From Ignavibacteriales bacterium (GTDB taxonomy: Bacteria; Bacteroidota; Ignavibacteria; UBA10030), in contig JAPLFQ010000032.1 of the NCBI GenBank assembly GCA_026390595.1, forward strand, positions 28,215-92,214: 64,000 bases of DNA. The letters run 5' to 3'. The position numbers and the translations under genes were made by a program. How positions within the stretch are numbered: position 1 is the stretch's first letter; each line of letters starts with the position of its first letter. Below the pieces are notes generated by a model that was given only the letters and a program-made list of their open reading frames with translations, ran no database searches and was not told where the DNA came from. Of the stretch, positions 28,442 to 43,659 are shown piece by piece.

Positions 28442-28457
28442 TGGCACCTTTTTAGCT
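28442..28457 (+). promoter_or_regulatory. Candidate sigma54-type -24/-12 element (TGGCAC-N5-TAGC)
   Basis: TGGCACcttttTAGCT has the correct GG-N10-GC spacing, about 240 bp upstream of the GH38 ATG at 28698. The -12 region is imperfect (TAGC vs TTGC). Confidence 0.25.
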
Positions 28458-31600: not shown

Positions 31601-31817
31601 GGAGGATTCAGACGATGTGATCGTTCGTCTCCACGAAGCGTACGGCCAATCGGTCAAGACGACGCTCACCTTCGGCGTACGAGCAGATGCCGCTACCGAA
31701 TGCGACCTGCTGGAACAAGAAGTGGCAACTCTGAAGATCGCCAAGATGAAGCTGTCGCTGAAATTCTCCCCCTTCGAGATCAAGACATTGAAGGTGAAGT
31801 TCAGGACGAAACGATAG
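28698..31817 (+). CDS. GH38 alpha-mannosidase of the cytosolic MAN2C1/Ams1 type
   Basis: LVAQSHIDVVWLWRLQETKKKCARTF closely resembles the eukaryotic/cytosolic GH38 HCHIDTAWLW…ETVRKCARSW motif. Downstream GH38 central and C-terminal domains are present. The start is uncertain: the frame stays open back to 28239, and ATG 28698 follows AGGA. Confidence 0.8.
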   Translation: MHIDLLAQTLPFIKSHIHQNPLPLSEWKLKEGELPNGGSPTLNDNTWWKYTIPAPWGGYDKTVWFRRRVVIPEAYAGKRLGLVFEMSDALLYVNGKAFQGIDKNHQEVLLTDKARTNQSFLIALEAYSGRKKDLSTFNSAQLVVLNPVARALHNGLTALHDLEKILGPTSHETKDIKELIRQTLIFLKYFKPDGEEYPNAIGRAYNFLTRTLEADYKTTIPGLIHLVAQSHIDVVWLWRLQETKKKCARTFSTALRLMEQYPEFTFSQSQAFLYHLTKEHYPDVFKEIKQRIAEGRWQAIGSMWVEPDCNIPNGEALVRQVLHGKRFFRNEFGVDSDILWLPDTFGYSWALPQIMKKSGIRYFFTTKLTWNDTNPFPHNTFWWRGIDGSKVLAHIPAVGLEGSVTPKDLKKSWESYQEKETSPHTIQTFGYGDGGGGPTADQLDTTRVVKSVVGLPGSALSTTGQFFKTVEEHAKEFETWNDELYLEKHRGTFTTHGWVKRENRQSEALLYATELLAVVGMLVGNKGASRRYPQQQIERAWKKLLVNQFHDIVPGTSIAEAYEDVRKDFAALRSSCQTIQAHALSGLITKEGKKKPQTDFRFAAFNPLGWQRNEYIILELNSQAKSFVVTDGNGNAVENQVLGRRKGIVQVLCYAENIPPLSFGQLIVTPSDAKPAPPSPWKMTNRLVETPRYRVRFDSRGGISSLHDKTLRRELVAKGARINHFQAYKDIPKQWEAWDIEADYMSRPVDLFKLERLRTVEDGPLRATVRLELKSDTGSRLTQDIHFYHKSPRIDFETSVSWKERQTLLKAAFPLNVKTHAATYEIQFGALQRSTKSGDARQKAKFEVPAQQWVDLSEQKFGVSLLNDCKYGYDASGTTIRLTLLRSPHHPHPLDPSRLNDDRLTDQGDHVFTYALYPHSKDWRGGETIQRARELNHPCIVTPGTAGSLPWLFSVSSPGIVIDSIKKAEDSDDVIVRLHEAYGQSVKTTLTFGVRADAATECDLLEQEVATLKIAKMKLSLKFSPFEIKTLKVKFRTKR

Positions 31818-31981
31818 TTCTCGGGTCGTACAAGCCGGACTATTTGGACAGGCGCGGGCCGTCAGATCCCGGAGCTGTGGCGCCATCAGCTTCCCTCTTC
31901 CCTGAACATTCATCCGCTTCCGCAGTACCGCACTTCCGAGTACCGAGACAGAAAACACCGGCCTCTTTTTCAAATGCCCAT

Positions 31982-33274
31982 ATGAAAACACGCAAGAGCG
32001 GTATCTGGAACACTCTGTTTGGAATCCTGCTTACTGTCTCTCTCGCTTTCTCACCCGGAGCGTTTACTGGCATTGCTCAGTTGCCAGAATACCTGGAGGT
32101 TCAGGTCGGGGCTGACAGACTCCTGTCCGAATACAGCCACCTGATCAACGGGAAGAGGCTGGCCCTCGTCTCCAACCACAGCGGGCGACTCTCGGATGGC
32201 ACACATCTCGCCGACGCGCTCTTCAGATACAAAAACACCAGGCTGATGGTTCTCTTCGGCATGGAGTTCAATATCAGGACGAACGACTATTCACTTCCAC
32301 GCGACAAAGAACAAGATGTAGACAAAGAGACCGGCCTCGTGAAGTATTCGCTCTATGGCGACGTCCACAAGCCCACTGCCGATATGCTGCGCGACGTCGA
32401 TGTCATCGTGTTCGACATTCAGGAGGTCGGCACGCGGTTCTACGAGCATGTCAATGTTCTCGGATTCGTAATGGAGGCAGCGGCGGAGAATAACAAAGAG
32501 GTCATTGTGCTCGACCGCCCCAATCCGCTCACCGGACTGCAACCGGACGGTTTCCTCCCTGATGACGAGTTCCTCTACCGCTTCGGGTCTTTTGGCAAGA
32601 TACCAGTGCTTCACGGGATGACTATGGGAGAACTTGCCCGGATGTACAACGATGAGACCATGCTGCGCGGAGGACGCCGGGGGAAGCTTCACGTTGTTGA
32701 GATGAAGGGATGGAACCGACGGATGTGGTTTGACGATACAGGATTGCCATGGAGAAAGCCGTCACCGAATCTCATCACGCTCAGCTCGGTTATCGCATAC
32801 ACGGGGACATGCCTGTTCGAAGGTATCAACATATCGGAGGGACGCGGGACGGACAGACCTTTTGAATATGTCGGCGCTCCATGGATCGATCACCTCAAAG
32901 CCGCAGAATTGCTCAATGATCTTCATCTCGATGGAGTCGTGTTCGAACCGGTGGAATTCACTCCCGAGAAGAAGCCTCATCTGAGCCGCGAGCCTGAACT
33001 GAGCGGGCAGCCATGCAAAGGGATTTTCGTCCACGTGACCGATCGGAACAAGGTGAGACCTTACAGGGCCGGCATTGCGCTGGTTTGGGCATTCCATACA
33101 CTGCATGCTGACAAAATGGCGTGGGACGAAAACGTAATCGAAAGGCTGACCGGAACGAAGAGATTTCTGAAGATGATTCGAGCCGGAGCTCGGCCCCGGG
33201 AAATCTACTCTTCATGGGGGGATGAGCTAACCCGGTTCGCAGAACGAAGCAGCAAGTATCTGCTCTACCGGTGA
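31982..33274 (+). CDS. DUF1343 family protein (NamZ-like exo-beta-N-acetylmuramidase family), secreted
   Basis: Signal peptide MKTRKSGIWNTLFGILLTVSLAFSPGAF. The DUF1343 core includes DVIVFDIQEVGTRFYEHVNVLGFVMEAAAENN. The track ORF start 31511 is an out-of-context extension overlapping the GH38 gene. Confidence 0.75.
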   Translation: MKTRKSGIWNTLFGILLTVSLAFSPGAFTGIAQLPEYLEVQVGADRLLSEYSHLINGKRLALVSNHSGRLSDGTHLADALFRYKNTRLMVLFGMEFNIRTNDYSLPRDKEQDVDKETGLVKYSLYGDVHKPTADMLRDVDVIVFDIQEVGTRFYEHVNVLGFVMEAAAENNKEVIVLDRPNPLTGLQPDGFLPDDEFLYRFGSFGKIPVLHGMTMGELARMYNDETMLRGGRRGKLHVVEMKGWNRRMWFDDTGLPWRKPSPNLITLSSVIAYTGTCLFEGINISEGRGTDRPFEYVGAPWIDHLKAAELLNDLHLDGVVFEPVEFTPEKKPHLSREPELSGQPCKGIFVHVTDRNKVRPYRAGIALVWAFHTLHADKMAWDENVIERLTGTKRFLKMIRAGARPREIYSSWGDELTRFAERSSKYLLYR

Positions 33275-33295
33275 GCAGAACACATCAGTATGCAT

Positions 33296-33331
33296 CAAAA
33301 ACAAACGGGCGAGTAATCCTCGCCCGTTTTT
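33296..33331. terminator. Bidirectional rho-independent terminator between convergent DUF1343 and nagB genes
   Basis: AAAAACAAACGGGCGAG-taatc-CTCGCCCGTTTTT: a 9-bp GC-rich stem flanked by an A-tract and a T-tract. Confidence 0.75.
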
Positions 33332-33354
33332 CATTCCATCTGCTTCAGCCCCGC

Positions 33355-34167
33355 TTAACGAAGCAGAGTCCCAGGATCGAGATTCGGCGACTCGATATCC
33401 TTGAAATACTTCACCGTCCCAACCTTCAGCTCCAGCGTTGCCTCGTCGTCGGTGACGATGATGCCGTGCGGATGAAGCTGGAGGGCGCTCACCGTCCACA
33501 TGTGATTCACGCCGCCTTCGACAACGTTCGCCAGCGCACGCGCCTTCTTGTAGCCATTGATAATGATCAGCACTTCTTTCGCATCGAGGACTGTTGCCAC
33601 GCCGACGGTCAATGCAGTCTTCGGCACCTTCGCCGTGTCGTTGTCAAAGAATCGGGCGTTGGCAATAATCGTGTCCAGCGTCAGGGTCTTCACTCGTGTC
33701 CTTGAAGAAAGCGATGATCCCGGCTCATTGAATGCGATGTGGCCATCGGGCCCGATGCCGCCGAGGAACAGGTGGATGCCGCCGATCTTCTTGATCCGGG
33801 CCTCGTAGTCGGTGCATTCCTTCTCAAGGTCCTTCGCGTTCCCGTTCAGGATGTTGACGTTTTCCTTCTTGATATCGATATGCTTGAAGAAGTTGTTCCA
33901 CATGAATGAGTGGTAGCTCTCAGGATGATCTTCGGCGAGGTTGATATACTCGTCCATATTGAACGATACGACGTTTTGGAACGACACCTTGCCAGCCTTG
34001 TGCATTGCCACCAGTTCCTTGTAGGTTCCAAGGGGCGATGATCCGGTGGGAAGTCCAAGCACAAACGGCCTATCCGGCGCCGGGTTGAAATCGCGGATCT
34101 TGCGGACCACGTACGATGCAACCCATTTACTGACCAGATCATAATCAGATTGTATGATGACTCTCAT
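33355..34167 (-). CDS. nagB: Glucosamine-6-phosphate deaminase (copy 1)
   Basis: 270 aa with NagB motifs ([15 protein letters not shown], …[23 protein letters not shown]…). ~65% identical to the copy at 37851..38657. Confidence 0.9.
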
Positions 34168-34185
34168 GCGAGTTACCTGCCTTCC

Positions 34186-35568
34186 TTAGTTCTTTTTGTA
34201 TTTGTTGAAGTAATCCGGCAAGTGAAGCTTTACTTGTTCTTCCAGTTCCTGATCTGTGATGGACGACATCCTTCCATCCTTCTCGTACTGGTCCATCACC
34301 CATCGGAAAATCTTCGCCACCTTCATCACAGTCAATCGTTCTTCGCCTTTGAGCCCGAGGAATTCGTTCACCCAGAGGGCGACACCATCGGATCCCGATT
34401 TGTCCGTAATGGAAACGCGTGGCGGACGGTTCAGAAGCGCCGTCGTGTCGAAAATATTGTAGATCTGCTCAAACTTCCTGAGACCGCCGGCGTGGATGCC
34501 GGCCCGCGTTGTGTTGAAATCTCTTCCCACGAACGGATAATTCGTCGTGAGCTGCGTACCGATGACCTTCTCGTAGTATTGCGCCAGTTCCGTAATTACC
34601 TGGAGATTCACGCCGTTGAGTCCGCCTTTGAGTGCGACGTACTCGATGACCGCTCCTTCGAGCGGCGGATTTCCCGTCCGCTCCCCAAAGCCGAACAGCG
34701 TGGAGTTCAGTGCATTCAATCCATAAATCCATGCGCTCGCGCCGTTGGTGTGAACCTTGTGAAAATCATTGTGACCGTGCCACTCGAGCCGGTCTGCCGA
34801 GACTCCGATTTCGTTTCTTAACCGCCATATCATCTTCGGGATCGACCGCGGTTCGGCTGCGTTCGGATACGAAATACCGAACCCCATCGTGTCGCACAGA
34901 CGGATTTTTACTTTCATATGGTCGGGGACCTGCTCGCTGAGACGCTCGAGTCTCTGTACGAACGGGTAGACAAACCCTGCAAGATCTGCGCGTGTTACAT
35001 CTTCCAGATGGCAGCGCGGCCGGACGCCAGCCTCAAATGCGGCTTCGACGACCTCTACATACTGATCCATCGCCTGTTTGCGCGTCTGATTCTGCTTGTG
35101 AAAAATATGGTAGTCCGACGATGACGTGAGCATGCCGGTTTCTTTCAACCCCATTTCCTTCACAAGGCGGAAATCCCCCTTGTTCGCCCTAATCCATCCG
35201 GTGATTTCGGGATAACGGAGATTGAGTGCACGACAGGCATCGATCGTGGCGCGGTCATTTTTCGTGTACAGGAAAAACTCCGATTGGCGGATAACGCCGT
35301 TCGGACCACCGAGTCGTGACATCATCTCAAAGAGAGCGACCATCTGCTCCAGCGTATACGGCGGGCGCGCTTGCTGCCCATCGCGAAACGTCGTGTCGGT
35401 GATGTGAATATCGCGCGTCTTCACCTCGTGAGGATCGAACTCGACAATCTTCCCGTCGATCAGTTCGTGGATCTTCCCCTCGAAATTGATGAGCGGGGGA
35501 AGCGTGTAGGGAAATGACTCCTCAAGAAGATTGGGGGATGACACGTCCTTCAGCTCGTAGGTCTTCAT
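34186..35568 (-). CDS. DRE-TIM metallolyase (LeuA / homocitrate-synthase / citramalate-synthase-like) family enzyme
   Basis: N-terminal ITDTTFRDGQQA (DTTxRDGxQ motif) and HGHNDF (HxH metal motif) match the 2-isopropylmalate/homocitrate synthase catalytic domain. The substrate is unknown. Confidence 0.7.
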   Translation of the reverse strand: MKTYELKDVSSPNLLEESFPYTLPPLINFEGKIHELIDGKIVEFDPHEVKTRDIHITDTTFRDGQQARPPYTLEQMVALFEMMSRLGGPNGVIRQSEFFLYTKNDRATIDACRALNLRYPEITGWIRANKGDFRLVKEMGLKETGMLTSSSDYHIFHKQNQTRKQAMDQYVEVVEAAFEAGVRPRCHLEDVTRADLAGFVYPFVQRLERLSEQVPDHMKVKIRLCDTMGFGISYPNAAEPRSIPKMIWRLRNEIGVSADRLEWHGHNDFHKVHTNGASAWIYGLNALNSTLFGFGERTGNPPLEGAVIEYVALKGGLNGVNLQVITELAQYYEKVIGTQLTTNYPFVGRDFNTTRAGIHAGGLRKFEQIYNIFDTTALLNRPPRVSITDKSGSDGVALWVNEFLGLKGEERLTVMKVAKIFRWVMDQYEKDGRMSSITDQELEEQVKLHLPDYFNKYKKN

Positions 35569-35663
35569 CGCTACTCCTCCTGTTGTGTAGAGTCATGGCT
35601 TCGCCCGTTCCCCCACCATTCACGCTGCCAACGCATTCACGGTCAGCCGGGGCACAGCGAAAC

Positions 35664-37658
35664 CTAGACAGTGCTTGATGCTATCAAGGCCCTGAATTGC
35701 TCTTTCCGCGTTCGAATCGCCGCTCCCTCTGCGGCAAGCTTCTGCACGACGCCGTTCGTCTCGATCGTGCCCCGAACGGCTTCAAAGTCCTTCTGCATAT
35801 CTTCGCCCGACTGATGAAGCCCGTAGCCGATCTTCGCGAAGGTACCGAATTCCTTCTTAGAATCTTCGATGATGATCCCCTGCAGCGATGTCGCGGCATT
35901 CTCCCAATCGTCCGCGGCCGCGAGCAGCTGATCCTTCGTCACATTCTCGAGCTGAATGCCGTACTCCTTCGCATACGCTTCATACACGTACTGCCATTCG
36001 TCAGTACGATATGCATCGTACATCGCCTGAAATTCCACAAGCAACGCCTCGTACGAGGACACCGCCCCCGCTGCGACACGTGTCTCGAGGGAAACCATTC
36101 GCTCGGACGGCGTCAACAGCCCGCTGATGTCGGTCCATTGGGCGGAGTGTTGGAGAATCGCCGCCGGTTTCAATGATGCCATCGCAGCGGACCAGTTCTT
36201 TTCATTTGTGAGTGCTTGCTGGATTCGCTGCATTACCTTGTCCTGAAGGTAGCGGGTGATCGCAAGAGAGTAGAACTTGGCCCCTTTTTTCAACAGCAAC
36301 CGGCTCAACTGTGCGCCACCGTAGGTCACGTACGATTTCTCCTTCGGAACGCTCACGCTGAGAGCAAGAAGATCGTCCCGTCCGCGTCTCATCTTCTCGA
36401 CGGTGTAGGGAGAAAAGACATCAAAGATAATCAGATCGCGTTTCTTCGGCGCCTTGCGGCCGTCACGTTTCGGCCATTTCTCTCCATCCCGCACGGTTCC
36501 GACCGACACCAGGTTCATGCCGGGAACAACCTTTGAATTTCCATCCTCTTCTGAAATATAAGAGAATGGGAGGTTCGGCAGGTCAAGGTTTGCATAGTGC
36601 TTGCCGATCACGACACTAAACGCCCCGATATGCGCTTCAAGCAGAAGATACGAGAACGAGCCGGTCTTCGATCCACGTTCGAGAATGCCCTGATGGACCG
36701 GGCCGAGCTTGTACATGTGATTGCTCTGGTTTGTCCCGCTCCCTGCATTATAGAAAGAGAACACTCCCGCAATCAGAAGTGTTGACTTATGGTGTGTGAC
36801 GGTATAAGGTCCGCCAAAGAGCGATACGGCCTCGCCGTGAAACGCTTCGCAATTCGCGAAGAACAGAGAATTCTCGGCGGAAAACTGCTTTCCCATCTTG
36901 ACGGCCTGACCGACAAAAACCTTGTCGAGCACCGCACCGCTTTCCACCCGGGCTCCTTCGGACAGGATGAACGATTTCGCCTGTACTCCCTCGCCAATCT
37001 CGGACGGATGTTCCGCACAGCTGTTGATCGTACCATTTTCGAGGAACTGCGTACCATGGACATTTGCTTTGACGCCGAAGTTCACGTTGTGAATCGTCCC
37101 ACAATGCACTATCCTCGCTCCGCTGCTGACGCGTCCCTTCTCTGCCTTGGCCTCCTTCGCTTTCGCTTCGACCAGTTCTTCGAGCTTTTTTGTGAATTCG
37201 GTGTTGTGCCGGATCATTCCCTGAACGTAGGCGGTCTGAGATGTGAGATCGTTGAGAATTCGGACGCCCCTCCCTCCCCCTTCATTGATCGTTTCGAGCT
37301 CGATCCCGTTGCCGAACGATGCCCCTGCATCAGCGACCAGAGCCGCGACATCTTGAATGAGGACGTCATTCTCTATAACGTAGTTCGCTACAACGGATCC
37401 GATATTCGCGATCCGCACATTGTCTCCGATGTCGCATCCGGCGATGGATGCCGAATAGATGCCGTTCGGCATTTCGATTGCGTCAACATTCTGCATGCCG
37501 CTCGTATCGCCGATACGGACGATTCCTGAAAAGTGCGCATTCCGTATTCTCGCCACGTCGCATCCCGGCGAGATAGTGATCTGCCCCCAGTCGGCTGCAG
37601 TGCAACCCTGTTGCACGAGAGTTTTCGTTTGTTCGTTGGTGAGTTGATGATATGTCAT
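35664..37658 (-). CDS. Large left-handed beta-helix (hexapeptide-repeat) protein, DUF4954-like
   Basis: ~660 aa with repeated hexapeptide-like segments (IGDNVRIANIGSVVANYVIENDVLIQDV…). The start is set at the internal Met MTYHQL, 17 codons downstream of the track ORF start (inferred; no RBS checked). I recognise no characterised function. Confidence 0.6.
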   Translation of the reverse strand: MTYHQLTNEQTKTLVQQGCTAADWGQITISPGCDVARIRNAHFSGIVRIGDTSGMQNVDAIEMPNGIYSASIAGCDIGDNVRIANIGSVVANYVIENDVLIQDVAALVADAGASFGNGIELETINEGGGRGVRILNDLTSQTAYVQGMIRHNTEFTKKLEELVEAKAKEAKAEKGRVSSGARIVHCGTIHNVNFGVKANVHGTQFLENGTINSCAEHPSEIGEGVQAKSFILSEGARVESGAVLDKVFVGQAVKMGKQFSAENSLFFANCEAFHGEAVSLFGGPYTVTHHKSTLLIAGVFSFYNAGSGTNQSNHMYKLGPVHQGILERGSKTGSFSYLLLEAHIGAFSVVIGKHYANLDLPNLPFSYISEEDGNSKVVPGMNLVSVGTVRDGEKWPKRDGRKAPKKRDLIIFDVFSPYTVEKMRRGRDDLLALSVSVPKEKSYVTYGGAQLSRLLLKKGAKFYSLAITRYLQDKVMQRIQQALTNEKNWSAAMASLKPAAILQHSAQWTDISGLLTPSERMVSLETRVAAGAVSSYEALLVEFQAMYDAYRTDEWQYVYEAYAKEYGIQLENVTKDQLLAAADDWENAATSLQGIIIEDSKKEFGTFAKIGYGLHQSGEDMQKDFEAVRGTIETNGVVQKLAAEGAAIRTRKEQFRALIASSTV

Positions 37659-37850
37659 AGAAGGACCGCGCGTGGTTTCAGTTTTGAATTCAGGAGAAAC
37701 GCCCAGCACGTTGCAGGAACGAGATCAACGGGAAATCTCTGCCGATGATCTGGCGGACATCACAACGATGGTACAAGATTCTACCAAAACAGCAATTGAA
37801 CTTCAAGAACAATCAGACGATGCGAACAGAAGCGCTCCGGACACCGGTGC

Positions 37851-38657
37851 TCACAACTCGGGCAATCCCATGTTTTCTTTTTCGATGTCCCTGAAGTACT
37901 TCACCGTCCCGACCTTCAGCTCCATTGTCGCCTCATCGTCGCAGACGATCATTGCATGCTCATGCAGCTGGAGCATCGAAACCGTCCACATGTGATTCAC
38001 TTCGTCTTCGAGTATCTTCTGCAAGGCCCGGGACTTGTTGAATCCGCTTATCACCATCACGATTTCCTCGGCGTCCATCATAGTCCCAACCCCCATCGTG
38101 ACCCCGGTCTTCGGTACCTTGTTGATGTCGTTTCCGAACCACCGTGCGTTTGCCGCCCGCGCACCGTGCGTGATAGTCTTGATGCGCGTCCGGGAGGAAA
38201 GCGACGATCCGGGCTCGTTAAAACCAATGTGCCCGTCCGGCCCGATGCTCCCGAGAAACAGGTGGATCCCTCCCGCCTTCTTGATGCTCTCCTCGTAATT
38301 CCTGCACTCAGCGTCAAAATCGGCGACGTTGCCATTCAGGAGCCGCACATTGTCGGGATTGATATCAATGTGGCTGAAGAAGTTGTTCCATAGCACCGAA
38401 TAGTGGCTCTGCGGATGGTCCTCGGGTATGCCCGCATACTCGTTGAGGCCAAATGCAACCACATTCCGGAACGTCACATTCCCATCCTGGTGCAGGCTGA
38501 TCAATTGCTGGTAGGTACCGACGGGAGACATTCCAGCCGGCAAACCAAGGACAAATGGCTTCTCCGCTGTTGGATTGAATTCCTTGATCCTCTTGGCGAT
38601 GTAGTACGCCGTCCACTTGCTCAATGCCTCGTAGCTGTCGTGAATGATGATTCTCAT
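37851..38657 (-). CDS. nagB: Glucosamine-6-phosphate deaminase (copy 2, paralog)
   Basis: 268 aa with the same NagB motifs ([38 protein letters not shown]). Stop is 18 nt from the upstream acyl-CoA synthetase gene. Confidence 0.9.
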   Translation of the reverse strand: MRIIIHDSYEALSKWTAYYIAKRIKEFNPTAEKPFVLGLPAGMSPVGTYQQLISLHQDGNVTFRNVVAFGLNEYAGIPEDHPQSHYSVLWNNFFSHIDINPDNVRLLNGNVADFDAECRNYEESIKKAGGIHLFLGSIGPDGHIGFNEPGSSLSSRTRIKTITHGARAANARWFGNDINKVPKTGVTMGVGTMMDAEEIVMVISGFNKSRALQKILEDEVNHMWTVSMLQLHEHAMIVCDDEATMELKVGTVKYFRDIEKENMGLPEL

Positions 38658-38675
38658 GCGGAGATTCTCCTTTGG

Positions 38676-40808
38676 CTAGAGCATGATCCTGGCATCTGCG
38701 ACGAAACAACCGCCGCCTTCGTCATTCACAATCAGTGGATTAATGTCGAGCTCTTTGATCTCCGGAAAATCGGTCGCCAACGCAGCAAGGCGCTGGATCG
38801 CCTCCTCCACACTGCGAATATCACGCGGCTTTTTGCCCCGCGCTCCTGCCAGCATCGAATATGCCCTGATTTCCCGTATCATTTCAGACGCGGAACGAGG
38901 CCCCACAGGCGCAACGCGGAAACTGACGTCTCTGAATACTTCCACAAACAGTCCGCCCAATCCAAACATGATCACGGCCCCGAACGATGGGTCACGCTTC
39001 ACTCCCAGGATGACCTCTTCACCTTTCGAAACCATCTTCTGGATGTAGATGCCTTTAATTCGCGCGCCCGGCTTCGCCTTCTCGACGTTTTGCAGGATGG
39101 AATCATATCCCTCTCCCGCAGCCTCGGCGGTCCGTATATCCAGAAGCACTCCCTTGACATCGAACTTGTGCACGATGTCATCCGAATCGACTTTCATCAC
39201 AACGGGGAACCCGATACGCCCGGCGATACTGATCGCTTCCTGTCTCGACTTCGCGAGCCCCGATGGCAACGTCGGCAAGCCATACGCCTCGAGAATCGTG
39301 ACTGATTCTTCTTCGGGCAGATAGTTTCTGCCAGCGGCGATGGCGTTCTGAATGACGGCACGCGCCTTTTCTTTGTCCAATCCCGAAAACGTCTGCACTT
39401 CCTCGGATTTCGTATCGCGATGATGCTTGAAAAAGAGGGCGCTCGCATAGGCGCGGCACATCGACTCCGGAAGAATGTAATGCGGTATGCTGCGCTGCTG
39501 GAGGATATCGATACCAACCGCAACATCCTTCTCGCCCATGAACGACGCGTACGCCGGTTTGTCGAACTTCCCAACAGTGTCGCACACTTCTACGGCAATG
39601 TTCTCGATGTCCGTCATCGATTGCGGCGTCAGGATGACCAGTACTCCATCGACTCCCGGATCCTGCAGCGCTCCGCCCAGAGCCACCTTGTAACGATCGG
39701 CTCTGGCGTCCCCAATCACATCCACAGGGTTCTTGATGTTCGCTGTTGCCGGAAGGCTCTTCTTGTAGATCTCAAGTGTGGCATCCGAAAATTTCGCAAG
39801 CTGGAGATGCTGCTTGATTGCGGCGTCCGTTGCAAGCACACCCGGTCCACCGGCGTTCGTGATAATCGCGACGCGTTTTCCCTGGGGAAGCGGTTGGTAC
39901 GCGAGTGCGATTGCGTTGTTGAACATTTCTTCGATTGTCGTGCAGCGGATGATGCCGGCTTGCCTGAAGGCGGCATCGCATACCTCGTCGCTTCCAGCGA
40001 GAGAGCCTGTGTGAGAGGCGGCAGCTGCGGCACCTTCGCTTGTCCGGCCGGATTTCAAGATCAGTACCGGCTTTCCGGATTCGGAAATAATCTCCTGCGC
40101 TGCCTGCATGAGCGCGACACCGTCCGTGATCTCCTCGAGATAGACGAGGATGACTTTCGTCTTCGGATCGTTTTTCAGGTAACGCATCAGATCGATTTCG
40201 TTGATGTTCGCCTTGTTGCCGAAGCTGACGAACTTTGAGAAGCCGATGTGTTTGGCCTGAGCGTAGTCGAGGACTGCGGTGCAAAGGGCGCCGCTCTGAG
40301 AAAGGAACGCGATGTTTCCTTCCTGCGGCATCTTGCGAGCGAACGATGCATTGAGGTGAGAAAGCGGATCGGTGTTGATGACGCCGAGACAGTTCGGACC
40401 GATGAAGGAGATGTTGTGCTTCTGTGCGATCGCCTTGATCTCTTCTTCCCGCTGTTTGCCGGCCGCGCCGACTTCACGGAAGCCTGCCGATATAATGATC
40501 GCAGACTTGACTCCTTTTTGTCCGCACTGTTCGAGAGCCAGGTTGCAGACGCTGCTCGGAAACACGAGGATAGCGAGATCGACGGGATCGGGAATGTCGA
40601 TTACGTACTTGTATGCCCGCACGCTGGCCACCGAGCGTTCCTTCGGGCTGACAGGGTACACAATTCCCTGAAAGTTATCCTTCAGGATGTTCGCAAAGAT
40701 GTCGTGCGGCACAGTGCCGACGACACGGTTTGTGCCAAGGACGGCGACGGATTTCGGATAAAATACGTGCTCTAGGTCCTTCGCAGGCGGAACTGAAGTT
40801 TGAGACAT
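38676..40808 (-). CDS. Fused alpha/beta ADP-forming (NDP-forming) acyl-CoA synthetase
   Basis: N-terminal CoA-binding Rossmann domain (KSVAVLGTNRVVGTVPHDIF…), succinyl-CoA-synthetase-like ligase-CoA domain with a phospho-His loop, and a C-terminal ATP-grasp domain. 710 aa with no GNAT tail, so it is not Pat. Confidence 0.8.
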   Translation of the reverse strand: MSQTSVPPAKDLEHVFYPKSVAVLGTNRVVGTVPHDIFANILKDNFQGIVYPVSPKERSVASVRAYKYVIDIPDPVDLAILVFPSSVCNLALEQCGQKGVKSAIIISAGFREVGAAGKQREEEIKAIAQKHNISFIGPNCLGVINTDPLSHLNASFARKMPQEGNIAFLSQSGALCTAVLDYAQAKHIGFSKFVSFGNKANINEIDLMRYLKNDPKTKVILVYLEEITDGVALMQAAQEIISESGKPVLILKSGRTSEGAAAAASHTGSLAGSDEVCDAAFRQAGIIRCTTIEEMFNNAIALAYQPLPQGKRVAIITNAGGPGVLATDAAIKQHLQLAKFSDATLEIYKKSLPATANIKNPVDVIGDARADRYKVALGGALQDPGVDGVLVILTPQSMTDIENIAVEVCDTVGKFDKPAYASFMGEKDVAVGIDILQQRSIPHYILPESMCRAYASALFFKHHRDTKSEEVQTFSGLDKEKARAVIQNAIAAGRNYLPEEESVTILEAYGLPTLPSGLAKSRQEAISIAGRIGFPVVMKVDSDDIVHKFDVKGVLLDIRTAEAAGEGYDSILQNVEKAKPGARIKGIYIQKMVSKGEEVILGVKRDPSFGAVIMFGLGGLFVEVFRDVSFRVAPVGPRSASEMIREIRAYSMLAGARGKKPRDIRSVEEAIQRLAALATDFPEIKELDINPLIVNDEGGGCFVADARIML

Positions 40809-40826
40809 TGTACCTCCCCAGGTTGT

Positions 40827-41069
40827 CTACTTCAGATAGCCAGCGATGAATTCGACCGCGCCATCTACTGTCGCCACTTCGCGCGCCTTCTGCTCGTCCA
40901 TCTGTATGTTGAACTCCTCTTCGAACGCGGCGATAAGCTCGATGCTCTGCATCGAGTCGGCGCCGAGATCGAACGAGAAATTTGCAGTCGGCGTGATCTC
41001 CTTCACATCCACCTTCAATACCTGAGCAGTGATCTTCTCTACTCTCGCCTTGATCTCAGACTTATCCAT
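40827..41069 (-). CDS. Acyl carrier protein
   Basis: 80 aa with the phosphopantetheine attachment motif FDLGADSMQSIELIAAFEEEF. GGAGG RBS. 18 nt upstream of the acyl-CoA synthetase. Confidence 0.8.
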   Translation of the reverse strand: MDKSEIKARVEKITAQVLKVDVKEITPTANFSFDLGADSMQSIELIAAFEEEFNIQMDEQKAREVATVDGAVEFIAGYLK

Positions 41070-41131
41070 TGCTTTCCTCCATGTGGAACTTGTGAATATC
41101 GTCTAAATGTAATGGTGGGAATAACTTGAAC

Positions 41132-41159
41132 AATATACGTACCATCTTTGGCATCTCAA
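41132..41159 (-). promoter_or_regulatory. Candidate sigma70-type promoter for the ACP operon
   Basis: On the minus strand TTGAGA-16 nt-TATATT sits about 60 nt upstream of the ACP ATG, with a GGAGG RBS. Confidence 0.35.
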
Positions 41160-41869
41160 AGGAATAAGAGAAAAACGGCGGAATGCGGCAAAAGTTCGCA
41201 AAATCTAGAAATTTCCGGAGTGCTTTTCCAGAATTCCTTTCGCGGCCGACGCGGGCTGGGGAAGGCCGGATCCTTGCGTGCGCTGATAGGCTAGCAATAG
41301 TCCCCTCGGAGGCGGCTGAACCGGGCGGGCACGGCCGTCGCTCGATGGGATCCCCAGACGGCAGAAAGCCGCCGGAAATAGTCATGAGCTACCCTTTCAT
41401 GGGATTGACGGCGTTGCTCATTGAGAACGCCGTGCCTATCTAGGGACTCAAAGATACTGGGGGTGTTTCAGGGAGGGGAAATGGGGGAAAATCGTTGGAA
41501 CGGGGAAAGAGACCTTCTTGCAGTGCTCTCATGCCAAAGTTTGGTCAAAACCTGCTAGTATCGCGTCTCTGCAGTTGTCTGAATAAGTCCCGTCAGGGAC
41601 GAGATGTACATTGATTTGAAAACAAGCTGTTTTCCGAGAACTCCGTCAGGAGTGACATCTCAAATTATTCAAGGTACTTGCTAAACGTGACACTAGGAGA
41701 AAGAAATACCCGGGTTTCCTCCTGCAAGAAGGATGGGGTTGGGAAAAAAACCTAGATTCTGGAATACCTCCGGGTAGCCGCAGCGAAGCATCTCTTTCGC
41801 GGGTTCGGCTGGGGTGATTGCAGCATCCCTTCAAAGCACGCTGCAGCTACCAGCGGGAGGTGGTGGGAG

Positions 41870-42364
41870 TCAGTTGGCCGGACCTTGAATCCAGACGCCA
41901 CTGCTGTGTGAGACGGGTTGTTGAGATTCTTTGTCAGCAGGTTTCGTCAGAGCTTTTCGGACTTCGTTTTCTGTAATCACCAGCCTAAGGCCGGGTCTGT
42001 CCGCTTCGCTCCTGGGCTTTGCCATCTGCCAGATACTCGGCAATGCGCCAAAATATGATTTTCGAAACTCTTCCATCGTCATCCCTGTGGTATTCTTGAA
42101 GAGCCGGGCGCCGACATCTTCCCGCAAACCCAAATCGAGACAAATCACTTTGCAGAGAGCTTCCGACGTGAGAAGACGCTCCTTCATCCGGCATACCCTC
42201 GACTCCCGGATGTACCTGCTCAGGCTCACCTTCTCCGTTCGGTAGAACGATTGCTTCAATTTGTCGAGAGGGCAGTCTAGTTGTGTCGCAACCTGCTGGG
42301 CCTTTTTCAACGTGGTGAGGTTTGAAGAAACAAAGGACTTCACTTGAGGTATGTCGATCGTCAT
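41870..42364 (-). CDS. Small AraC-family HTH-only protein (no sensor/dimerisation domain)
   Basis: Internal start ATG 42364 preceded by AGGAGA with a 7-nt spacer. Two AraC-type HTH subdomains (…LSRYIRESRVCRMKERLL… and …ICLDLGLREDVGARLFKNTTGMTMEEFRK). The longer 246-aa track ORF is an extension. Confidence 0.6.
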   Translation of the reverse strand: MTIDIPQVKSFVSSNLTTLKKAQQVATQLDCPLDKLKQSFYRTEKVSLSRYIRESRVCRMKERLLTSEALCKVICLDLGLREDVGARLFKNTTGMTMEEFRKSYFGALPSIWQMAKPRSEADRPGLRLVITENEVRKALTKPADKESQQPVSHSSGVWIQGPAN

Positions 42365-42692
42365 GGCGGGATCTCCTGCGTAGTTGAGGATTGAGGGAGC
42401 GTGGATTGTGGAGCAGCGAGTCGTTTGCGAAGAGCCAAGGTCACACATGGTGCGATCCTTCGGTTGGACTGGAATGAACGATATGTTCGAAGCAGGATCG
42501 AAATGATGATCGGAGCTTCGACGATCAGGGGCGGGACTGACCAGTTGCCGGGTTGAGATCAGGAAGAACGAGGGACACCTTGACCGCCCATGCGAAAATA
42601 ATGAGGGCAAGAGTCAAAGTCAAGTTAAATTACGGAATATATCCGAGATATTGCGGAATCGGCCTGTAAACCGATTGGCATTTTTTTGAGGA

Positions 42693-43637
42693 CTATTGTT
42701 TTCGAGCTGTCGGGATACCGAGTCTCTTCATGCGATATCGCAACGTGTCTTCGGTCATCTTGAGGAAGCGGGCGGCTCGGCTTTGATTGAATTCGAACTT
42801 CTCCAGCGTGCGCATCAGGATCCCCTTCTCGATGATCTCCATCGCGTTGTCGAGCGCGAATTCCGCCCCCTCATCGATGCGCGTGATGATGCGCGAGAGC
42901 TCTGCCTGCTCATTGACGAGCCCGGCCGGGAGCCGGAACACCTCTTTGTCGTTCGACAGCACGATGCTGCGCTCGACCATCCTCTTCAGTTCCAGGACAT
43001 TTTCCTTCCACTCCTGGCGCACGAGGACACCGATGGCATTGGAATCGATGATCATTCCTTCTATCCCGAGATCCTTGCCAACCTGAGCGACGAAATACTC
43101 CACCAACTCCGGGATATCATCGCGCCGTTCGCGGAGCGGTGAGATCATTATCATTTCCCACCGCTTTGTCTCCTCAGTGACCCCGGGGAGAACTGTCCCC
43201 GCCTTCACCGCTGCCCCGATCGGACCTTGAAGCAGGAAAATCAGGCGCAAATCGCGCTTCTCTTTCCGGAGAAAGGCGAGGAGATCACACACCGAGCTCT
43301 GAGCTGTCAGCCCCGAGCGATCGATGTCTTCGAAGATCAACGTCGTACCATCAACCAATTTGAAATTCCCATGGTCCGGGGCGATCGGGTTGTAGAGCTC
43401 TCCGCTTTGCATGGCCAAATCGACCAACTTCCTCAGCCGGCTCGGATCGATGACGGCGATGTTCAAACGAACACATGGCTTCCTGGCATCCTTGCTCTCA
43501 TTATGTATGGCTTCGGCAGTCAATCCCTTGCCGACACCCGATTCACCGATGATTACGACGTCTTTCCTGCCACGAGCCAGTCTTTTCACATCTTCACGAA
43601 GTTGCCGCGTGGCCGGACTTGATCCTACGATCTGCAT
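42693..43637 (-). CDS. Enhancer-binding-protein-like AAA+ transcriptional regulator (sigma54-interaction-type ATPase core + Fis-type HTH), lacking a GAFTGA motif and any N-terminal sensory domain
   Basis: Walker A VIIGESGVGKG, Walker B / sensor region (GTTLIFEDID), arginine-finger region (RERRDDIPELVEYF), and C-terminal HTH (RAARFLKMTEDTLRYRMKRLGI). The GAFTGA loop is replaced by AMQSGELYNPIAPDHGN. Confidence 0.7.
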   Translation of the reverse strand: MQIVGSSPATRQLREDVKRLARGRKDVVIIGESGVGKGLTAEAIHNESKDARKPCVRLNIAVIDPSRLRKLVDLAMQSGELYNPIAPDHGNFKLVDGTTLIFEDIDRSGLTAQSSVCDLLAFLRKEKRDLRLIFLLQGPIGAAVKAGTVLPGVTEETKRWEMIMISPLRERRDDIPELVEYFVAQVGKDLGIEGMIIDSNAIGVLVRQEWKENVLELKRMVERSIVLSNDKEVFRLPAGLVNEQAELSRIITRIDEGAEFALDNAMEIIEKGILMRTLEKFEFNQSRAARFLKMTEDTLRYRMKRLGIPTARKQ

Positions 43638-43659
43638 AGTGCGAAACCTTTCATTTGTC

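What the first reader, a model, noticed from the sequence alone, without database searches (positions are those of the whole stretch)
33355..41069. Six-gene minus-strand cluster: ACP – ADP-forming acyl-CoA synthetase – NagB – DUF4954 beta-helix protein – LeuA-like synthase – NagB. Candidate undescribed amino-sugar acylation/condensation pathway.
The genes are packed with 18-192 bp gaps on one strand, from a sigma70-like promoter upstream of the ACP to a strong bidirectional terminator at 33296-33331. The domain combination is not a textbook pathway. It joins two diverged glucosamine-6-P deaminase/isomerase paralogs, a DRE-TIM C-C bond-forming enzyme (DTTxRDGxQ / HxH motifs, as in isopropylmalate/homocitrate/citramalate synthases), a ~660-aa hexapeptide-repeat protein of the poorly characterised DUF4954 type (the beta-helix fold is typical of acyl- or nucleotidyl-transferases), a fused NDP-forming acyl-CoA synthetase and a dedicated ACP. 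One reading is that an amino-sugar phosphate is acylated or condensed using an ACP/CoA-activated acid. The GH38 mannosidase and NamZ-like DUF1343 genes immediately upstream suggest a link to glycan/amino-sugar scavenging. This is the strongest candidate in the window for a novel metabolic system.
Basis: partly seen in the sequence, partly recalled or inferred. Interest (0 to 1): 0.75.

Follow-up and report, generated by a model that had tools for sequence, protein, structure and literature searches.

The report
NagB–DUF4954 acetyl-handling amino-sugar gene cluster
A real six-gene operon in an Ignavibacteriales genome joins two ordinary glucosamine-6-phosphate deaminases to a large uncharacterised beta-helix protein, an acyl carrier protein and two acetyl-thioester enzymes; the same partnership recurs across at least ten bacterial phyla, which points to an undescribed way of handling the acetyl group of N-acetylglucosamine.

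Summary
The six minus-strand genes exist exactly where reported, with the stated gaps and terminator. Domain calls are right, with one correction. The 'LeuA-like synthase' belongs to the Clostridium kluyveri/Syntrophus-type Re-citrate synthase family (51% and 45% identity over the full length), so it condenses acetyl thioester with oxaloacetate, not with an amino sugar. Both NagBs are canonical (55-61% identical to my recalled copy of E. coli NagB). In 80 species-level loci holding a DUF4954 gene, 58 have NagB within 5 kb. Forty-four have an acetyl-thioester enzyme: ADP-forming ACS 24, Re-citrate synthase 15, AckA 8 and Pta 7. Forty-one of those 44 also carry a small ACP. The window merges two recurrent modules, ACP-ACS-NagB-DUF4954 and DUF4954-(ACP)-ReCS-NagB. 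The N-terminal half of DUF4954 folds like GlmU, LpxD and LpxA. Its most conserved segment could not be modelled. My best reading is that DUF4954 moves the acetyl group between GlcN-6-P and a carrier thiol, doing NagA's job. NagB removes GlcN-6-P, and the acetyl-ACP goes to citrate or is exchanged with acetate and ATP. The direction and the chemistry are inferred, not shown. I found no literature on DUF4954.

The parts
40827..41069 (-). Small acyl carrier protein (80 aa) with a DSM phosphopantetheine-attachment motif
   Evidence: PF00550 scores 52.9 bits and TIGR00517 scores 73.1 bits against a cut-off of 70.45. It is 41% identical to E. coli AcpP, whose sequence I recalled from memory. An ACP sits next to the acetyl-thioester enzyme in 41 of 44 DUF4954 loci that have one.
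38676..40808 (-). Fused alpha-beta ADP-forming acyl-CoA-synthetase-type ligase (710 aa)
   Evidence: It carries the four ACD domains. Its closest solved relative is 8WZU, an ADP-forming 4-hydroxybutyrate-CoA ligase, at 581 bits. It falls below every NCBIfam equivalog cut-off. Both ACD histidine motifs are present: SHTGSLAG at 265-272 and VHKFDVKGV at 546-554. Three of three clade members at 67-71% identity, picked only for contig length, have an ACP upstream and DUF4954 downstream.
37851..38657 (-). NagB-1, glucosamine-6-phosphate deaminase (268 aa), the faster-evolving paralogue
   Evidence: TIGR00502 scores 388 bits against a cut-off of 237. It is 55% identical to my recalled copy of E. coli NagB and 60% to NagB-2.
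37778..37806 (-). Conserved promoter-like site (TTGAAG-17-TAGAAT with an upstream TG) in the 192-nt gap before DUF4954
   Evidence: The consensus scan found it. The block is conserved in the window, L001 and L005, while the flanking intergenic sequence varies. The gap has no stable RNA fold (z = +1.5) and no Rfam hit.
35664..37658 (-). DUF4954 + DUF6819 protein (664 aa from the ATG at 37658): an N-terminal left-handed beta-helix, an unmodelled and highly conserved core, and a C-terminal helical domain
34186..35568 (-). Re-citrate synthase family enzyme (460 aa, DRE-TIM/HMGL-like)
   Evidence: PF00682 matches. All LeuA, NifV and CimA models score far below their cut-offs. It is 51% identical over residues 4-454 to the characterised S. 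aciditrophicus Re-citrate synthase and 45% to the C. kluyveri enzyme. JGI names close homologues 'citrate (Re)-synthase'.
33355..34167 (-). NagB-2, canonical hexamer-type glucosamine-6-phosphate deaminase (270 aa)
   Evidence: TIGR00502 scores 421 bits. The best solved match is Borrelia NagB 3HN6 at 422 bits. It is 61% identical to my recalled copy of E. coli NagB. The NagBs next to DUF4954 in other phyla are closer to this paralogue, at 65-87% identity.
33303..33329 (.). Hairpin terminator shared by the convergent NamZ and NagB-2 genes
   Evidence: The stem has 11 pairs, 7 of them G-C, with a T-run on each strand.
41129..41159 (-). Promoter region upstream of the ACP gene: a sigma70-like site (TTGAGA-16-TATATT) overlapping a weak sigma54-like site (TGGTAC-N5-TTGTT)
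   Evidence: The sigma54-like match is not significant on its own: 22 matches in the window against 27 expected. It is conserved only in the near-identical L001-3.

Best explanation
The cluster is a catabolic unit for N-acetylglucosamine-6-phosphate in which the N-acetyl group is handled as a carrier-bound acetyl thioester.

Shown:
- The genes are real.
- Both NagBs are canonical GlcN-6-P deaminases.
- The 'LeuA-like' gene belongs to the Re-citrate synthase family.
- The ligase is an ADP-forming ACD-type enzyme with both catalytic histidine motifs.
- DUF4954 has a GlmU/LpxD/LpxA-like left-handed beta-helix.
- Across phyla, DUF4954 sits next to NagB and next to one of three acetyl-thioester enzymes, almost always with a private ACP.

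Inferred:
- DUF4954 transfers acetyl between the amine of GlcN-6-P and the phosphopantetheine thiol of the ACP (or CoA). It takes the place that NagA has in the classical pathway.
- NagB pulls the reaction by converting GlcN-6-P to fructose-6-P and ammonia.
- Re-citrate synthase drains acetyl-ACP irreversibly into citrate. This also supplies 2-oxoglutarate carbon for the released ammonia.
- The ADP-forming ligase interconverts acetyl-ACP with acetate and ATP.

The window is a merger of the two commonest modules, ACP-ACS-NagB-DUF4954 and DUF4954-(ACP)-ReCS-NagB. A probable internal promoter sits at the junction.
For: Neighbourhood survey of 80 species-level loci spanning about ten phyla:
- NagB lies within 5 kb of DUF4954 in 58 of 80 loci.
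- An acetyl-thioester enzyme is present in 44 of 80: ACS 24, ReCS 15, AckA 8, Pta 7.
- An ACP is present in 41 of those 44, but in only 2 of the other 36.

AckA and Pta were confirmed with Pfam at 530 and 343 bits. L040 carries NagB-Pta-AckA-DUF4954-ACP-ACP-ReCS in one string.

The reverse association also holds. Three of three ACS-clade members, chosen only for contig length, have an ACP upstream and DUF4954 downstream. ReCS P0240 lies in a DUF4954-ACP-ReCS string.

No NagA homologue lies in the 64-kb window, and only 1 of 86 related loci has one.

The surrounding context is catabolic:
- GH38 and NamZ are adjacent in the window.
- In Prolixibacteraceae loci a ROK regulator and a NagB-like/PIG-L fusion precede the module.
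- Pirellulales loci carry an Amidase_2-like gene.

Re-citrate synthase can only consume acetyl thioester. The one direction common to all three partner types is therefore acetyl-thioester consumption.
Against: No activity was measured; every catalytic step assigned to DUF4954 is inference.

Transferring acetyl from an amide to a thiol is thermodynamically uphill. My estimate from textbook values is roughly 15-30 kJ/mol under standard conditions; it was not computed here. With the ACS or Pta-AckA as the sink, net ATP formation would be marginal.

Twenty-six loci have DUF4954 and NagB but no ACP or acetyl enzyme nearby. The ACP is therefore not obligatory, which fits a hydrolase equally well.

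The most conserved part of DUF4954 (residues ~265-410) could not be modelled and matches no other family. The active site is unknown and may not be an acyltransferase site.

ACD, Pta and Re-citrate synthase are classically CoA enzymes, not ACP enzymes.

An 82%-identical ReCS homologue stands alone, 3.4 kb from a classical citrate synthase, so the ReCS link is frequent but not obligatory.

NagA may be encoded elsewhere in these genomes; whole genomes could not be checked.
Confidence: 0.4

Rival explanations
1. Anabolic route. NagB runs backwards (fructose-6-P + ammonia to GlcN-6-P). DUF4954 is a GlcN-6-P N-acetyltransferase that pulls that unfavourable step. The ACS or Pta-AckA supplies acetyl-ACP from acetate and ATP. 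This would be a glutamine-independent synthesis of GlcNAc-6-P, as in the Giardia encystation pathway (NagB homologue plus GNA1; from my own knowledge).
For: The fold of DUF4954 matches N-acetyltransferases of glucosamine phosphates. The reaction is thermodynamically downhill. The ACP-ACS-NagB-DUF4954 module (24 loci) and the Pta-AckA-DUF4954 module (8 loci) are fully explained if these reversible enzymes act as acetyl sources.
Against: It gives no role to Re-citrate synthase, which is present in 15 of 80 loci and in the window and would compete for acetyl-ACP. The context is catabolic: GH38, NamZ, a ROK repressor-type regulator and PIG-L deacetylase fusions. Bacteria make UDP-GlcNAc via GlcN-1-P and do not need GlcNAc-6-P (established pathway knowledge).
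Confidence: 0.2
2. DUF4954 is a hydrolytic GlcNAc-6-P deacetylase, a non-orthologous replacement of NagA. The ACP together with ACS, Pta-AckA or ReCS forms an optional module that re-activates the released acetate and feeds it into the TCA cycle.
For: The core pair DUF4954 + NagB occurs without an ACP in 26 loci, and the ACP tracks the acetyl enzymes rather than DUF4954. NagA is absent from nearly all loci. The invariant His, Asp, Glu and Asn residues in the unmodelled core could form a metal site. All six window genes receive a role.
Against: Hydrolases with a left-handed beta-helix are rare, and the nearest folds are thioester-dependent acyltransferases. It does not explain why a dedicated ACP is used for acetate activation instead of CoA. 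No amidohydrolase signature was detected.
Confidence: 0.17
3. An amino-sugar phosphate is N-acylated or condensed with an unusual acid that the DRE-TIM enzyme builds and the ACS/ACP pair activates, giving a new N-acyl amino-sugar metabolite.
For: An ACP, a ligase, a Claisen-type enzyme and a beta-helix acyltransferase-like protein sit together. The ligase falls below all equivalog cut-offs, so its acid substrate is not fixed.
Against: The DRE-TIM enzyme is a full-length Re-citrate synthase homologue. In other phyla the interchangeable partners are acetate kinase and phosphotransacetylase, which points to acetyl. No exporter, tailoring enzyme or glycosyltransferase is conserved with the cluster.
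Confidence: 0.06
4. Co-regulated neighbours without direct biochemical coupling. Central-carbon genes (Re-citrate synthase, acetate ligase) and amino-sugar genes are grouped for common regulation, and DUF4954 has an unrelated structural or regulatory role.
For: One ReCS homologue stands alone. DUF4954 stands alone in 8 loci and, in Treponema pallidum, next to lgt. A conserved internal promoter suggests separable units.
Against: The spacing is tight or overlapping (-16 to +40 nt). The same partners recur in different orders and on different strands across about ten phyla. The ACP-ACS clade is specifically tied to DUF4954. DUF4954 has many invariant polar and charged residues typical of an enzyme.
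Confidence: 0.1

Closest known systems
Classical NagA-NagB catabolism of GlcNAc-6-P (E. coli nagBACD)
   Same: It has a canonical NagB (TIGR00502 above cut-off; 55-61% identical to my recalled copy of E. coli NagB). It sits in a glycan and amino-sugar scavenging context.
   Different: No NagA (amidohydrolase) lies nearby. NagB is instead partnered with a 664-aa beta-helix protein, an ACP and acetyl-thioester enzymes. There are two NagB copies.
GlmU acetyltransferase domain, LpxD and LpxA (left-handed beta-helix acyltransferases acting on glucosamine derivatives; LpxA and LpxD use acyl-ACP)
   Different: Sequence identity is only 11-18%. No hexapeptide Pfam family reaches its cut-off. DUF4954 has an extra, highly conserved core of about 150 residues with unknown structure, plus a helical DUF6819 domain. 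The catalytic residues have not been identified.
Re-citrate synthase of Clostridium kluyveri (CKL_0973) and Syntrophus aciditrophicus (SYN_02536), EC 2.3.3.3, KO K05942
   Same: Homology runs the full length at 45-51% identity, with the same DRE-TIM catalytic domain and C-terminal region.
   Different: The characterised enzymes use acetyl-CoA. I do not know of any report of a neighbouring ACP for them, and I did not check their gene context here. In this clade an ACP gene usually sits immediately upstream, and the proteins are unusually conserved (66-95% identity across phyla).
Archaeal and protist ADP-forming acetyl-CoA synthetase (ACD) and ADP-forming 4-hydroxybutyrate-CoA ligase (8WZU)
   Same: It has the same four domains, fused alpha-beta order and both catalytic histidine motifs.
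   Different: It falls below all NCBIfam equivalog cut-offs. An ACP gene always precedes it and DUF4954 always follows it. I know of no ACD that uses an ACP thiol, so that would be new.
ArgJ acetyl-recycling versus ArgE hydrolysis in arginine biosynthesis (an analogy from my own knowledge)
   Same: The concept is the same: an N-acetyl group is passed on rather than hydrolysed, and hydrolytic and group-conserving variants exist in different organisms.
   Different: ArgJ transfers acetyl from nitrogen to nitrogen and has an unrelated fold. Here the proposed acceptor is a thiol, and the transfer would be energetically uphill.
Giardia encystation pathway (a NagB-type isomerase run anabolically, plus GlcN-6-P N-acetyltransferase; from my own knowledge)
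   Same: A NagB is paired with an acetyl-transferring enzyme that acts on GlcN-6-P.
   Different: The Giardia acetyltransferase is a GNAT that uses acetyl-CoA. That pathway has no ACP, no citrate synthase and no beta-helix protein.

Membership tests
Glucosamine-6-phosphate deaminase NagB (TIGR00502) | Whole-protein score above the curated equivalog cut-off | tested here: met
   NagB-1 scores 388 bits and NagB-2 scores 421 bits against a cut-off of 236.9.
Glucosamine-6-phosphate deaminase NagB (TIGR00502) | Close full-length similarity to structurally and biochemically characterised NagB | tested here: met
   NagB-2 scores 422 bits against Borrelia NagB 3HN6 and 370 bits against E. coli 1CD5. 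Identity to E. coli NagB is 55% and 61% (the E. coli sequence was recalled from memory).
Re-citrate synthase (EC 2.3.3.3, KO K05942) | Full-length homology to the purified C. kluyveri or S. aciditrophicus enzymes, clearly closer than to LeuA, NifV or CimA | tested here: met
   Identity is 51% (E 6e-155) and 45% (E 6e-128) over about 450 residues. Identity to the Heliomicrobium and Dehalococcoides type is 28%. The best solved LeuA/CimA/homocitrate synthase hit scores only 83 bits. All NCBIfam LeuA, NifV and CimA models fall far below their cut-offs.
Re-citrate synthase (EC 2.3.3.3, KO K05942) | DRE-TIM metallolyase domain with the substrate and metal motifs | tested here: met
   PF00682 scores 88.5 bits. 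The DTTFRDGQQ and HGHND motifs align with those of the citramalate and homocitrate synthase structures.
Re-citrate synthase (EC 2.3.3.3, KO K05942) | Forms citrate from oxaloacetate and acetyl-CoA with Re-face stereochemistry | not testable with these tools
   This needs an enzyme assay. The thioester donor may be acetyl-ACP in this clade.
ADP-forming acyl-CoA synthetase (ACD/NDP-forming superfamily) | CoA-binding, Succ_CoA_lig, Ligase_CoA_2 and ATP-grasp_5 domains in one chain | tested here: met
   The closest solved relative is 8WZU at 581 bits.
ADP-forming acyl-CoA synthetase (ACD/NDP-forming superfamily) | Two catalytic histidines (alpha-loop HTGSLAG and beta HK-DV-G-V motifs) | tested here: met
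   SHTGSLAG lies at 265-272 and VHKFDVKGV at 546-554, read directly from the sequence. The motif assignment comes from my knowledge of ACD enzymes.
ADP-forming acyl-CoA synthetase (ACD/NDP-forming superfamily) | Membership of a substrate-defined equivalog (acetate-, 4-hydroxybutyrate- or 3-hydroxypropionate-CoA ligase) | tested here: not met
   Scores were 712 against a cut-off of 1300, 530 against 567, 520 against 1200 and 495 against 1300. The acid and thiol substrates are therefore not assigned.
Acyl carrier protein | PP-binding domain with the conserved serine in a D-S-x motif | tested here: met
   PF00550 scores 52.9 bits, and TIGR00517 scores 73.1 against a cut-off of 70.45. The LGADSM motif aligns with LGADSL of E. 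coli AcpP.
Left-handed beta-helix acyltransferases (GlmU C-terminal domain, LpxA, LpxD) | Left-handed beta-helix fold | tested here: met
Left-handed beta-helix acyltransferases (GlmU C-terminal domain, LpxA, LpxD) | Hexapeptide-repeat sequence family above cut-off | tested here: not met
   Only LbH_EIF2B matched, at 16.7 bits against a cut-off of 54. There is no sequence hit in the PDB.
Left-handed beta-helix acyltransferases (GlmU C-terminal domain, LpxA, LpxD) | Catalytic histidine and a thioester-binding groove at the trimer interface | tested here: inconclusive
   The invariant residues cluster at 276-408, outside the confidently modelled helix. That segment has pLDDT 22-28 in both models. 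Oligomeric state was not testable.
NagA (GlcNAc-6-P deacetylase, amidohydrolase superfamily) | Amidohydrolase TIM-barrel domain | tested here: not met
   DUF4954 matches no Amidohydro family. It could work like NagA but is not a member of that family.
Citrate lyase ACP system (CitD/CitE/CitF) | CitD-type ACP, CitE lyase and CitF transferase | tested here: not met
   The ACP here is of the PP-binding (AcpP-like) type. No CitE or CitF family appeared among the Pfam hits of the six cluster proteins or of the flanking ORFs I scanned.

The most novel reading that the evidence does not exclude
DUF4954 is a thiolytic GlcNAc-6-P deacetylase. It moves the N-acetyl group onto a private acyl carrier protein instead of releasing acetate. 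The acetyl thioester is then used directly: Re-citrate synthase accepts acetyl-ACP to make citrate, or an ADP-forming ligase or Pta-AckA acts on the ACP thioester to make ATP. This would be a new enzyme activity, a new role for an ACP in central catabolism, and the first ACP-dependent ACD and citrate synthase. The system would be widespread in Bacteroidota, Ignavibacteriota, Planctomycetota, Spirochaetota and relatives.
Probability: 0.25. Interest if true: 0.85.

Novelty: new variant of a known kind. Interest (0 to 1): 0.68.

Why it matters
N-acetylglucosamine from chitin, peptidoglycan and host glycans is one of the most abundant carbon and nitrogen sources on Earth. Its catabolism is regarded as solved: NagK or a PTS, then NagA, then NagB.

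This cluster shows something different in many glycan-degrading phyla. There NagB is genetically tied not to NagA but to a large enzyme family of unknown function, a dedicated ACP and enzymes of acetyl-thioester metabolism. Working it out would do three things:
- It would assign a function to DUF4954/DUF6819, a family of about 500-1000 clusters at 50% identity that includes a protein in the minimal genome of Treponema pallidum.
- It would test whether ACD-type ligases and Re-citrate synthases can use ACP thioesters.
- It might reveal an acetyl-conserving alternative to hydrolytic deacetylation.

Even in the least novel reading, a NagA analogue plus acetate salvage, it would fix a systematic gap in metabolic reconstructions of Bacteroidota, Ignavibacteriota and Planctomycetota.

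Tried and rejected
- **Riboswitch or structured RNA in the intergenic regions.** Rfam at E <= 1 over 33000-42700 gave only chance snoRNA and miRNA hits. The 192-nt gap folds no better than shuffled sequence. Rejected.
- **Sigma54 promoter upstream of the ACP gene.** A TGGTAC-N5-TTGTT site exists at 41129-41144, but such matches are no more frequent than chance. It is conserved only in near-identical relatives. Left open and not used as evidence.
- **Modelling the conserved core of DUF4954.** The full-length AF2 job and a job cropped to residues 225-470 both gave pLDDT of about 24 for this segment. This was a dead end.
- **Faint Pfam similarities of the core and the C-terminal domain at E <= 10.** Nothing but DUF4954 and DUF6819 matched.
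- **Sequence search of the DUF4954 profile against the PDB.** There were no hits at E <= 1.
- **Domain fusions among 150 family representatives.** None was informative.
- **Literature.** Six searches found no functional study: DUF4954; PF16314/DUF6819; two combinations of NagB with partner-enzyme and context terms; acetyl-ACP with GlcNAc-6-P; and beta-helix with NagB and gene neighbourhood.
- **LeuA, homocitrate or citramalate synthase identity for the DRE-TIM enzyme.** Rejected in favour of Re-citrate synthase.
- **Citrate-lyase-like reading (ReCS run in reverse with the ACP).** Rejected because there is no CitF or CitE and no energy input.
- **Phosphoketolase-like cleavage of fructose-6-P by DUF4954.** Rejected because there is no ThDP fold.
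- **The original Re-citrate synthase papers (PMC1913417, PMC3624545).** They are not held. I took the reference sequences from Table S1 of PMC12016533 instead. That text was machine-read from a PDF, so the identities I report are lower bounds.

Full report
**1. Observation**

Six ORFs lie head to tail on the minus strand between 33355 and 41069. Pfam and NCBIfam identify them, in transcription order, as follows:

| Gene | Coordinates | Length | Identification |
|---|---|---|---|
| ACP | 40827-41069 | 80 aa | PP-binding; TIGR00517 73 bits, cut-off 70 |
| ACS | 38676-40808 | 710 aa | Fused ADP-forming acyl-CoA-synthetase-type ligase, four ACD domains |
| NagB-1 | 37851-38657 | 268 aa | TIGR00502 388 bits, cut-off 237 |
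| DUF4954 | 35664-37658 | 664 aa | DUF4954 + DUF6819 |
| HMGL-like | 34186-35568 | 460 aa | HMGL-like/DRE-TIM protein |
| NagB-2 | 33355-34167 | 270 aa | TIGR00502 421 bits |

- **DUF4954 start.** The longest DUF4954 ORF starts at a GTG (37709), but all homologues are about 664 aa. The true start is therefore the ATG at 37658.
- **Promoter and terminator.** A sigma70-like site precedes the ACP gene (41159-41132). An 11-bp hairpin with T-runs on both strands (33303-33329) separates NagB-2 from the convergent NamZ gene.
- **Source organism.** A protein 100% identical to the ligase is on record from an Ignavibacteriales MAG.
- **Window context.** The rest of the window is ordinary chromosomal context: lysS, malQ, aroC, htrA, methylmalonyl-CoA mutase, comEC, thrA and metA.

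**2. Corrections to the parts list**

The two NagBs are not strongly diverged. They are 60% identical to each other and 55% and 61% identical to E. coli NagB (I recalled the E. coli sequence from memory). NagB-2 matches the Borrelia NagB structure 3HN6 at 422 bits. Both are canonical hexamer-type GlcN-6-P deaminases.

The 'LeuA-like' protein scores far below the cut-offs of every LeuA, NifV and CimA model. JGI names many of its close homologues 'citrate (Re)-synthase', which corresponds to KO K05942. I took the sequences of the purified Re-citrate synthases from Table S1 of PMC12016533. BLASTP gave these results:
- 51% identity over residues 4-454 to S. aciditrophicus SYN_02536 (E 6e-155);
- 45% identity to C. 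kluyveri CKL_0973 (E 6e-128);
- 28% identity to the Heliomicrobium and Dehalococcoides type.

The reference sequences were machine-read from a PDF, so these identities are lower bounds. The gene therefore belongs to a characterised family whose substrates are oxaloacetate and an acetyl thioester.

The ligase has both ACD catalytic histidine motifs. Its closest solved relative is the ADP-forming 4-hydroxybutyrate-CoA ligase 8WZU. It reaches no equivalog cut-off, so its substrates are formally open.

**3. DUF4954**

The family has no PDB relative by sequence and no functional literature. It is sizeable: 492 clusters at 50% identity with E <= 1e-30 and 1056 with E <= 1e-10.

An AF2 model (pLDDT 73) shows three parts:
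- a confident left-handed beta-helix at residues ~1-265;
- a confident helical C-terminal domain at ~415-664;
- an unmodelled middle segment.

Conservation across 135 representatives at 34-61% identity peaks at residues 281-340. The invariant residues include E276, H290, N304, S307, N310, S312-N313-H314, Y316, R328, S334, R390-D391, K394-W395, R398, R401 and D408. This is exactly the segment that AF2 cannot model, either in the full-length job or in a cropped job. No other Pfam family touches it. The active site is therefore unknown. 'Acyltransferase' is an inference from the fold and the gene context.

**4. Gene neighbourhood**

I analysed the 80 most similar ones, which range from 40% to 78% identity. 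They span Bacteroidota, Ignavibacteriota, Gemmatimonadota, Planctomycetota, Spirochaetota, KSB1, Calditrichota, Latescibacterota, Fibrobacterota and Marinimicrobia.

tblastn with the window proteins and clustering of all neighbouring ORFs gave these counts within 5 kb of DUF4954:

| Neighbour | Loci (of 80) |
|---|---|
| NagB | 58 |
| ACP | 43 |
| ADP-forming ligase (ACS) | 24 |
| Re-citrate synthase (ReCS) | 15 |
| Acetate kinase (AckA) | 8 |
| Phosphotransacetylase (Pta) | 7 |

AckA and Pta were confirmed with Pfam at 530 and 343 bits. Forty-four loci have at least one of these acetyl-thioester enzymes, and 41 of those 44 also have an ACP. Only 2 of the other 36 loci have an ACP, and both are contigs that end right after it.

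The recurrent layouts are:
- ACP-ACS-(NagB)-DUF4954;
- DUF4954-ACP-ReCS-(NagB);
- (NagB)-Pta-AckA-DUF4954-(NagB)-ACP;
- DUF4954-NagB alone (26 loci, mostly Planctomycetota).

Further points:
- **Mixed and rearranged loci.** L040 carries NagB-Pta-AckA-DUF4954-ACP-ACP-ReCS. L054 and L083 carry the same genes divergently arranged.
- **Spacing.** Gaps are tight, from -16 to about +40 nt in many cases.
- **Reverse association.** Three of three ligase-clade members, chosen only for contig length, have an ACP upstream and DUF4954 downstream. One ReCS homologue (77% identity) sits in a DUF4954-ACP-ReCS string. Another (82% identity) stands alone, 3.4 kb from a classical citrate synthase.
- **Origin of the window cluster.** The window, together with L001-3, L005 and L015, is a merger of the first two layouts. 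The junction is the 192-nt gap. That gap contains a TTGAAG-17-TAGAAT block conserved in the window, L001 and L005, which is probably an internal promoter.

**5. What the context says**

Every variable partner of DUF4954 and NagB makes or uses an acetyl thioester. Acetate kinase and phosphotransacetylase fix the acyl group as acetyl (or propionyl).

The step missing next to NagB is the deacetylation of GlcNAc-6-P. A NagA homologue is absent from the 64-kb window and from all related loci but one (I recalled the E. coli NagA query from memory).

The surroundings are catabolic:
- GH38 alpha-mannosidase and NamZ are adjacent in the window.
- In four Prolixibacteraceae loci a ROK regulator and a 773-aa NagB-like/PIG-L fusion precede the module.
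- Pirellulales loci carry an Amidase_2-like gene.
- L004 has a phosphopantetheinyl transferase next to the cluster.

**6. Mechanism**

My best explanation is an acetyl relay. DUF4954 transfers acetyl between the amine of GlcN-6-P and the carrier thiol. NagB removes GlcN-6-P as fructose-6-P and ammonia. Acetyl-ACP goes to citrate via Re-citrate synthase, or is exchanged with acetate and ATP via the ADP-forming ligase (elsewhere via Pta-AckA).

I favour the catabolic direction, from GlcNAc-6-P to acetyl-ACP. Re-citrate synthase can only be a sink, and loci such as the window and L040 combine it with a reversible acetate enzyme.

A private ACP could also make sense energetically. It could keep the acetyl-thiol pool far from the cellular acetyl-CoA/CoA ratio, which an uphill amide-to-thioester transfer would require.

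The main objection is thermodynamic. The transfer is uphill by roughly 15-30 kJ/mol under standard conditions (my estimate from textbook values). ATP formation from it would be marginal, although citrate formation would be feasible.

There are three serious rivals:
- **Anabolic route.** A Giardia-like pathway of NagB plus an N-acetyltransferase. It is downhill and fits the fold, but leaves ReCS unexplained.
- **Hydrolytic NagA analogue.** DUF4954 hydrolyses GlcNAc-6-P and an optional module salvages the acetate. This fits the 26 loci that lack an ACP, but it is an odd fold for a hydrolase and the ACP is unexplained.
- **Co-regulation only.** The genes share regulation without biochemical coupling.

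**7. Novelty and verdict**

The cluster is real, conserved and not described in the literature I could search. Four of the six genes belong to known families. The new elements are the function of DUF4954/DUF6819, the private ACP attached to classically CoA-dependent enzymes, and the link between NagB and acetyl-thioester metabolism.

I rate it a new variant of a known kind: amino-sugar catabolism with a different treatment of the acetyl group. There is a substantial chance of truly new enzymology. Direction and chemistry need the assays listed under next steps.

Noticed in passing
window 37778-37806 (-), within the 192-nt gap 37659-37850: A block TTGAAG-17-TAGAAT, with a TG just upstream of the second hexamer, is conserved in the window, L001 and L005 while the rest of the gap varies. 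It is probably an internal promoter that splits the cluster into ACP-ACS-NagB1 and DUF4954-ReCS-NagB2, at the seam between the two ancestral modules.
   Followed up: partly
window 41129-41144 (-) and 42693-43730 (-): A weak sigma54-type -24/-12 match (TGGTAC-N5-TTGTT) lies 75 nt upstream of the ACP start codon. About 1.6 kb upstream is a gene for a sigma54 activator that has AAA+ and HTH_8 domains but no receiver or sensor domain. Next to that gene are an AraC-type gene (41870-42610) and a 433-aa protein with no Pfam match (43660-44961). The motif is not significant on its own.
   Followed up: partly
window 28239-31817 (+) and 31511-33274 (+): The longest ORFs for GH38 and NamZ overlap by about 300 nt, and the NamZ domains begin at residue 218, so the NamZ start is probably further downstream. 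NamZ is absent between the cluster and GH38 in L001-3 but present in L005. It is therefore a variable insert.
   Followed up: no
L092 11255-13102 (+); L036 around 15346 (-): A second, divergent DUF4954 paralogue sits next to the main copy. In L092 it is 615 aa, has no DUF6819 domain and gives faint GlmU-hexapeptide hits. In L036 it is about 22% identical to the window protein.
   Followed up: partly
L050, L058, L071, L076 (Prolixibacteraceae); also L012, L034, L044: A protein of about 773 aa with a NagB-like N-terminal part and a weak PIG-L (LmbE-type de-N-acetylase) match accompanies the module. In L050, L058, L071 and L076 a ROK regulator precedes it, and it lies directly upstream of ACP-ACS-NagB-DUF4954. 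Its role relative to DUF4954 is unknown.
   Followed up: partly
L087 6001-7380 and 10789-12147: A Re-citrate synthase homologue, 82% identical to the window protein, stands alone without an ACP or DUF4954. It lies 3.4 kb from a classical (Si-type) citrate synthase gene, so some genomes carry both types.
   Followed up: no
L004 14701-15267 (-): A 4'-phosphopantetheinyl transferase (ACPS) gene lies directly after the DUF4954-ACP-ReCS-NagB unit, and an ACS-ACP pair is divergent upstream. This locus has two ACPs that are 45% identical.
   Followed up: no
DUF4954 protein residues ~265-410 (window about 36429-36866): The most conserved part of the protein is the part AlphaFold2 cannot model: pLDDT 22-28 in the full-length job and about 24 in a cropped job. 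This may mean a cofactor, metal or oligomer-dependent fold.
   Followed up: yes
L093 8229-8648: A Y1-type transposase gene (IS200-like) is inserted between the ligase gene and NagB inside an otherwise intact ACP-ACS-NagB-DUF4954 module.
   Followed up: no
Treponema pallidum WP_010882295.1 (PMC6953169): The minimal genome of T. pallidum keeps a DUF4954 protein (gene span 920,441-922,615, about 724 codons) next to lgt. This suggests the family can be important outside the NagB context.
   Followed up: no
window 45736-49435 (+): A molybdopterin oxidoreductase (732 aa) and, further downstream (48485-49435), an NrfD-type membrane subunit resemble a polysulfide/thiosulfate-reductase-like respiratory complex. 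In L001 the molybdopterin gene lies a few kb upstream of the cluster, beyond the same regulator genes.
   Followed up: no
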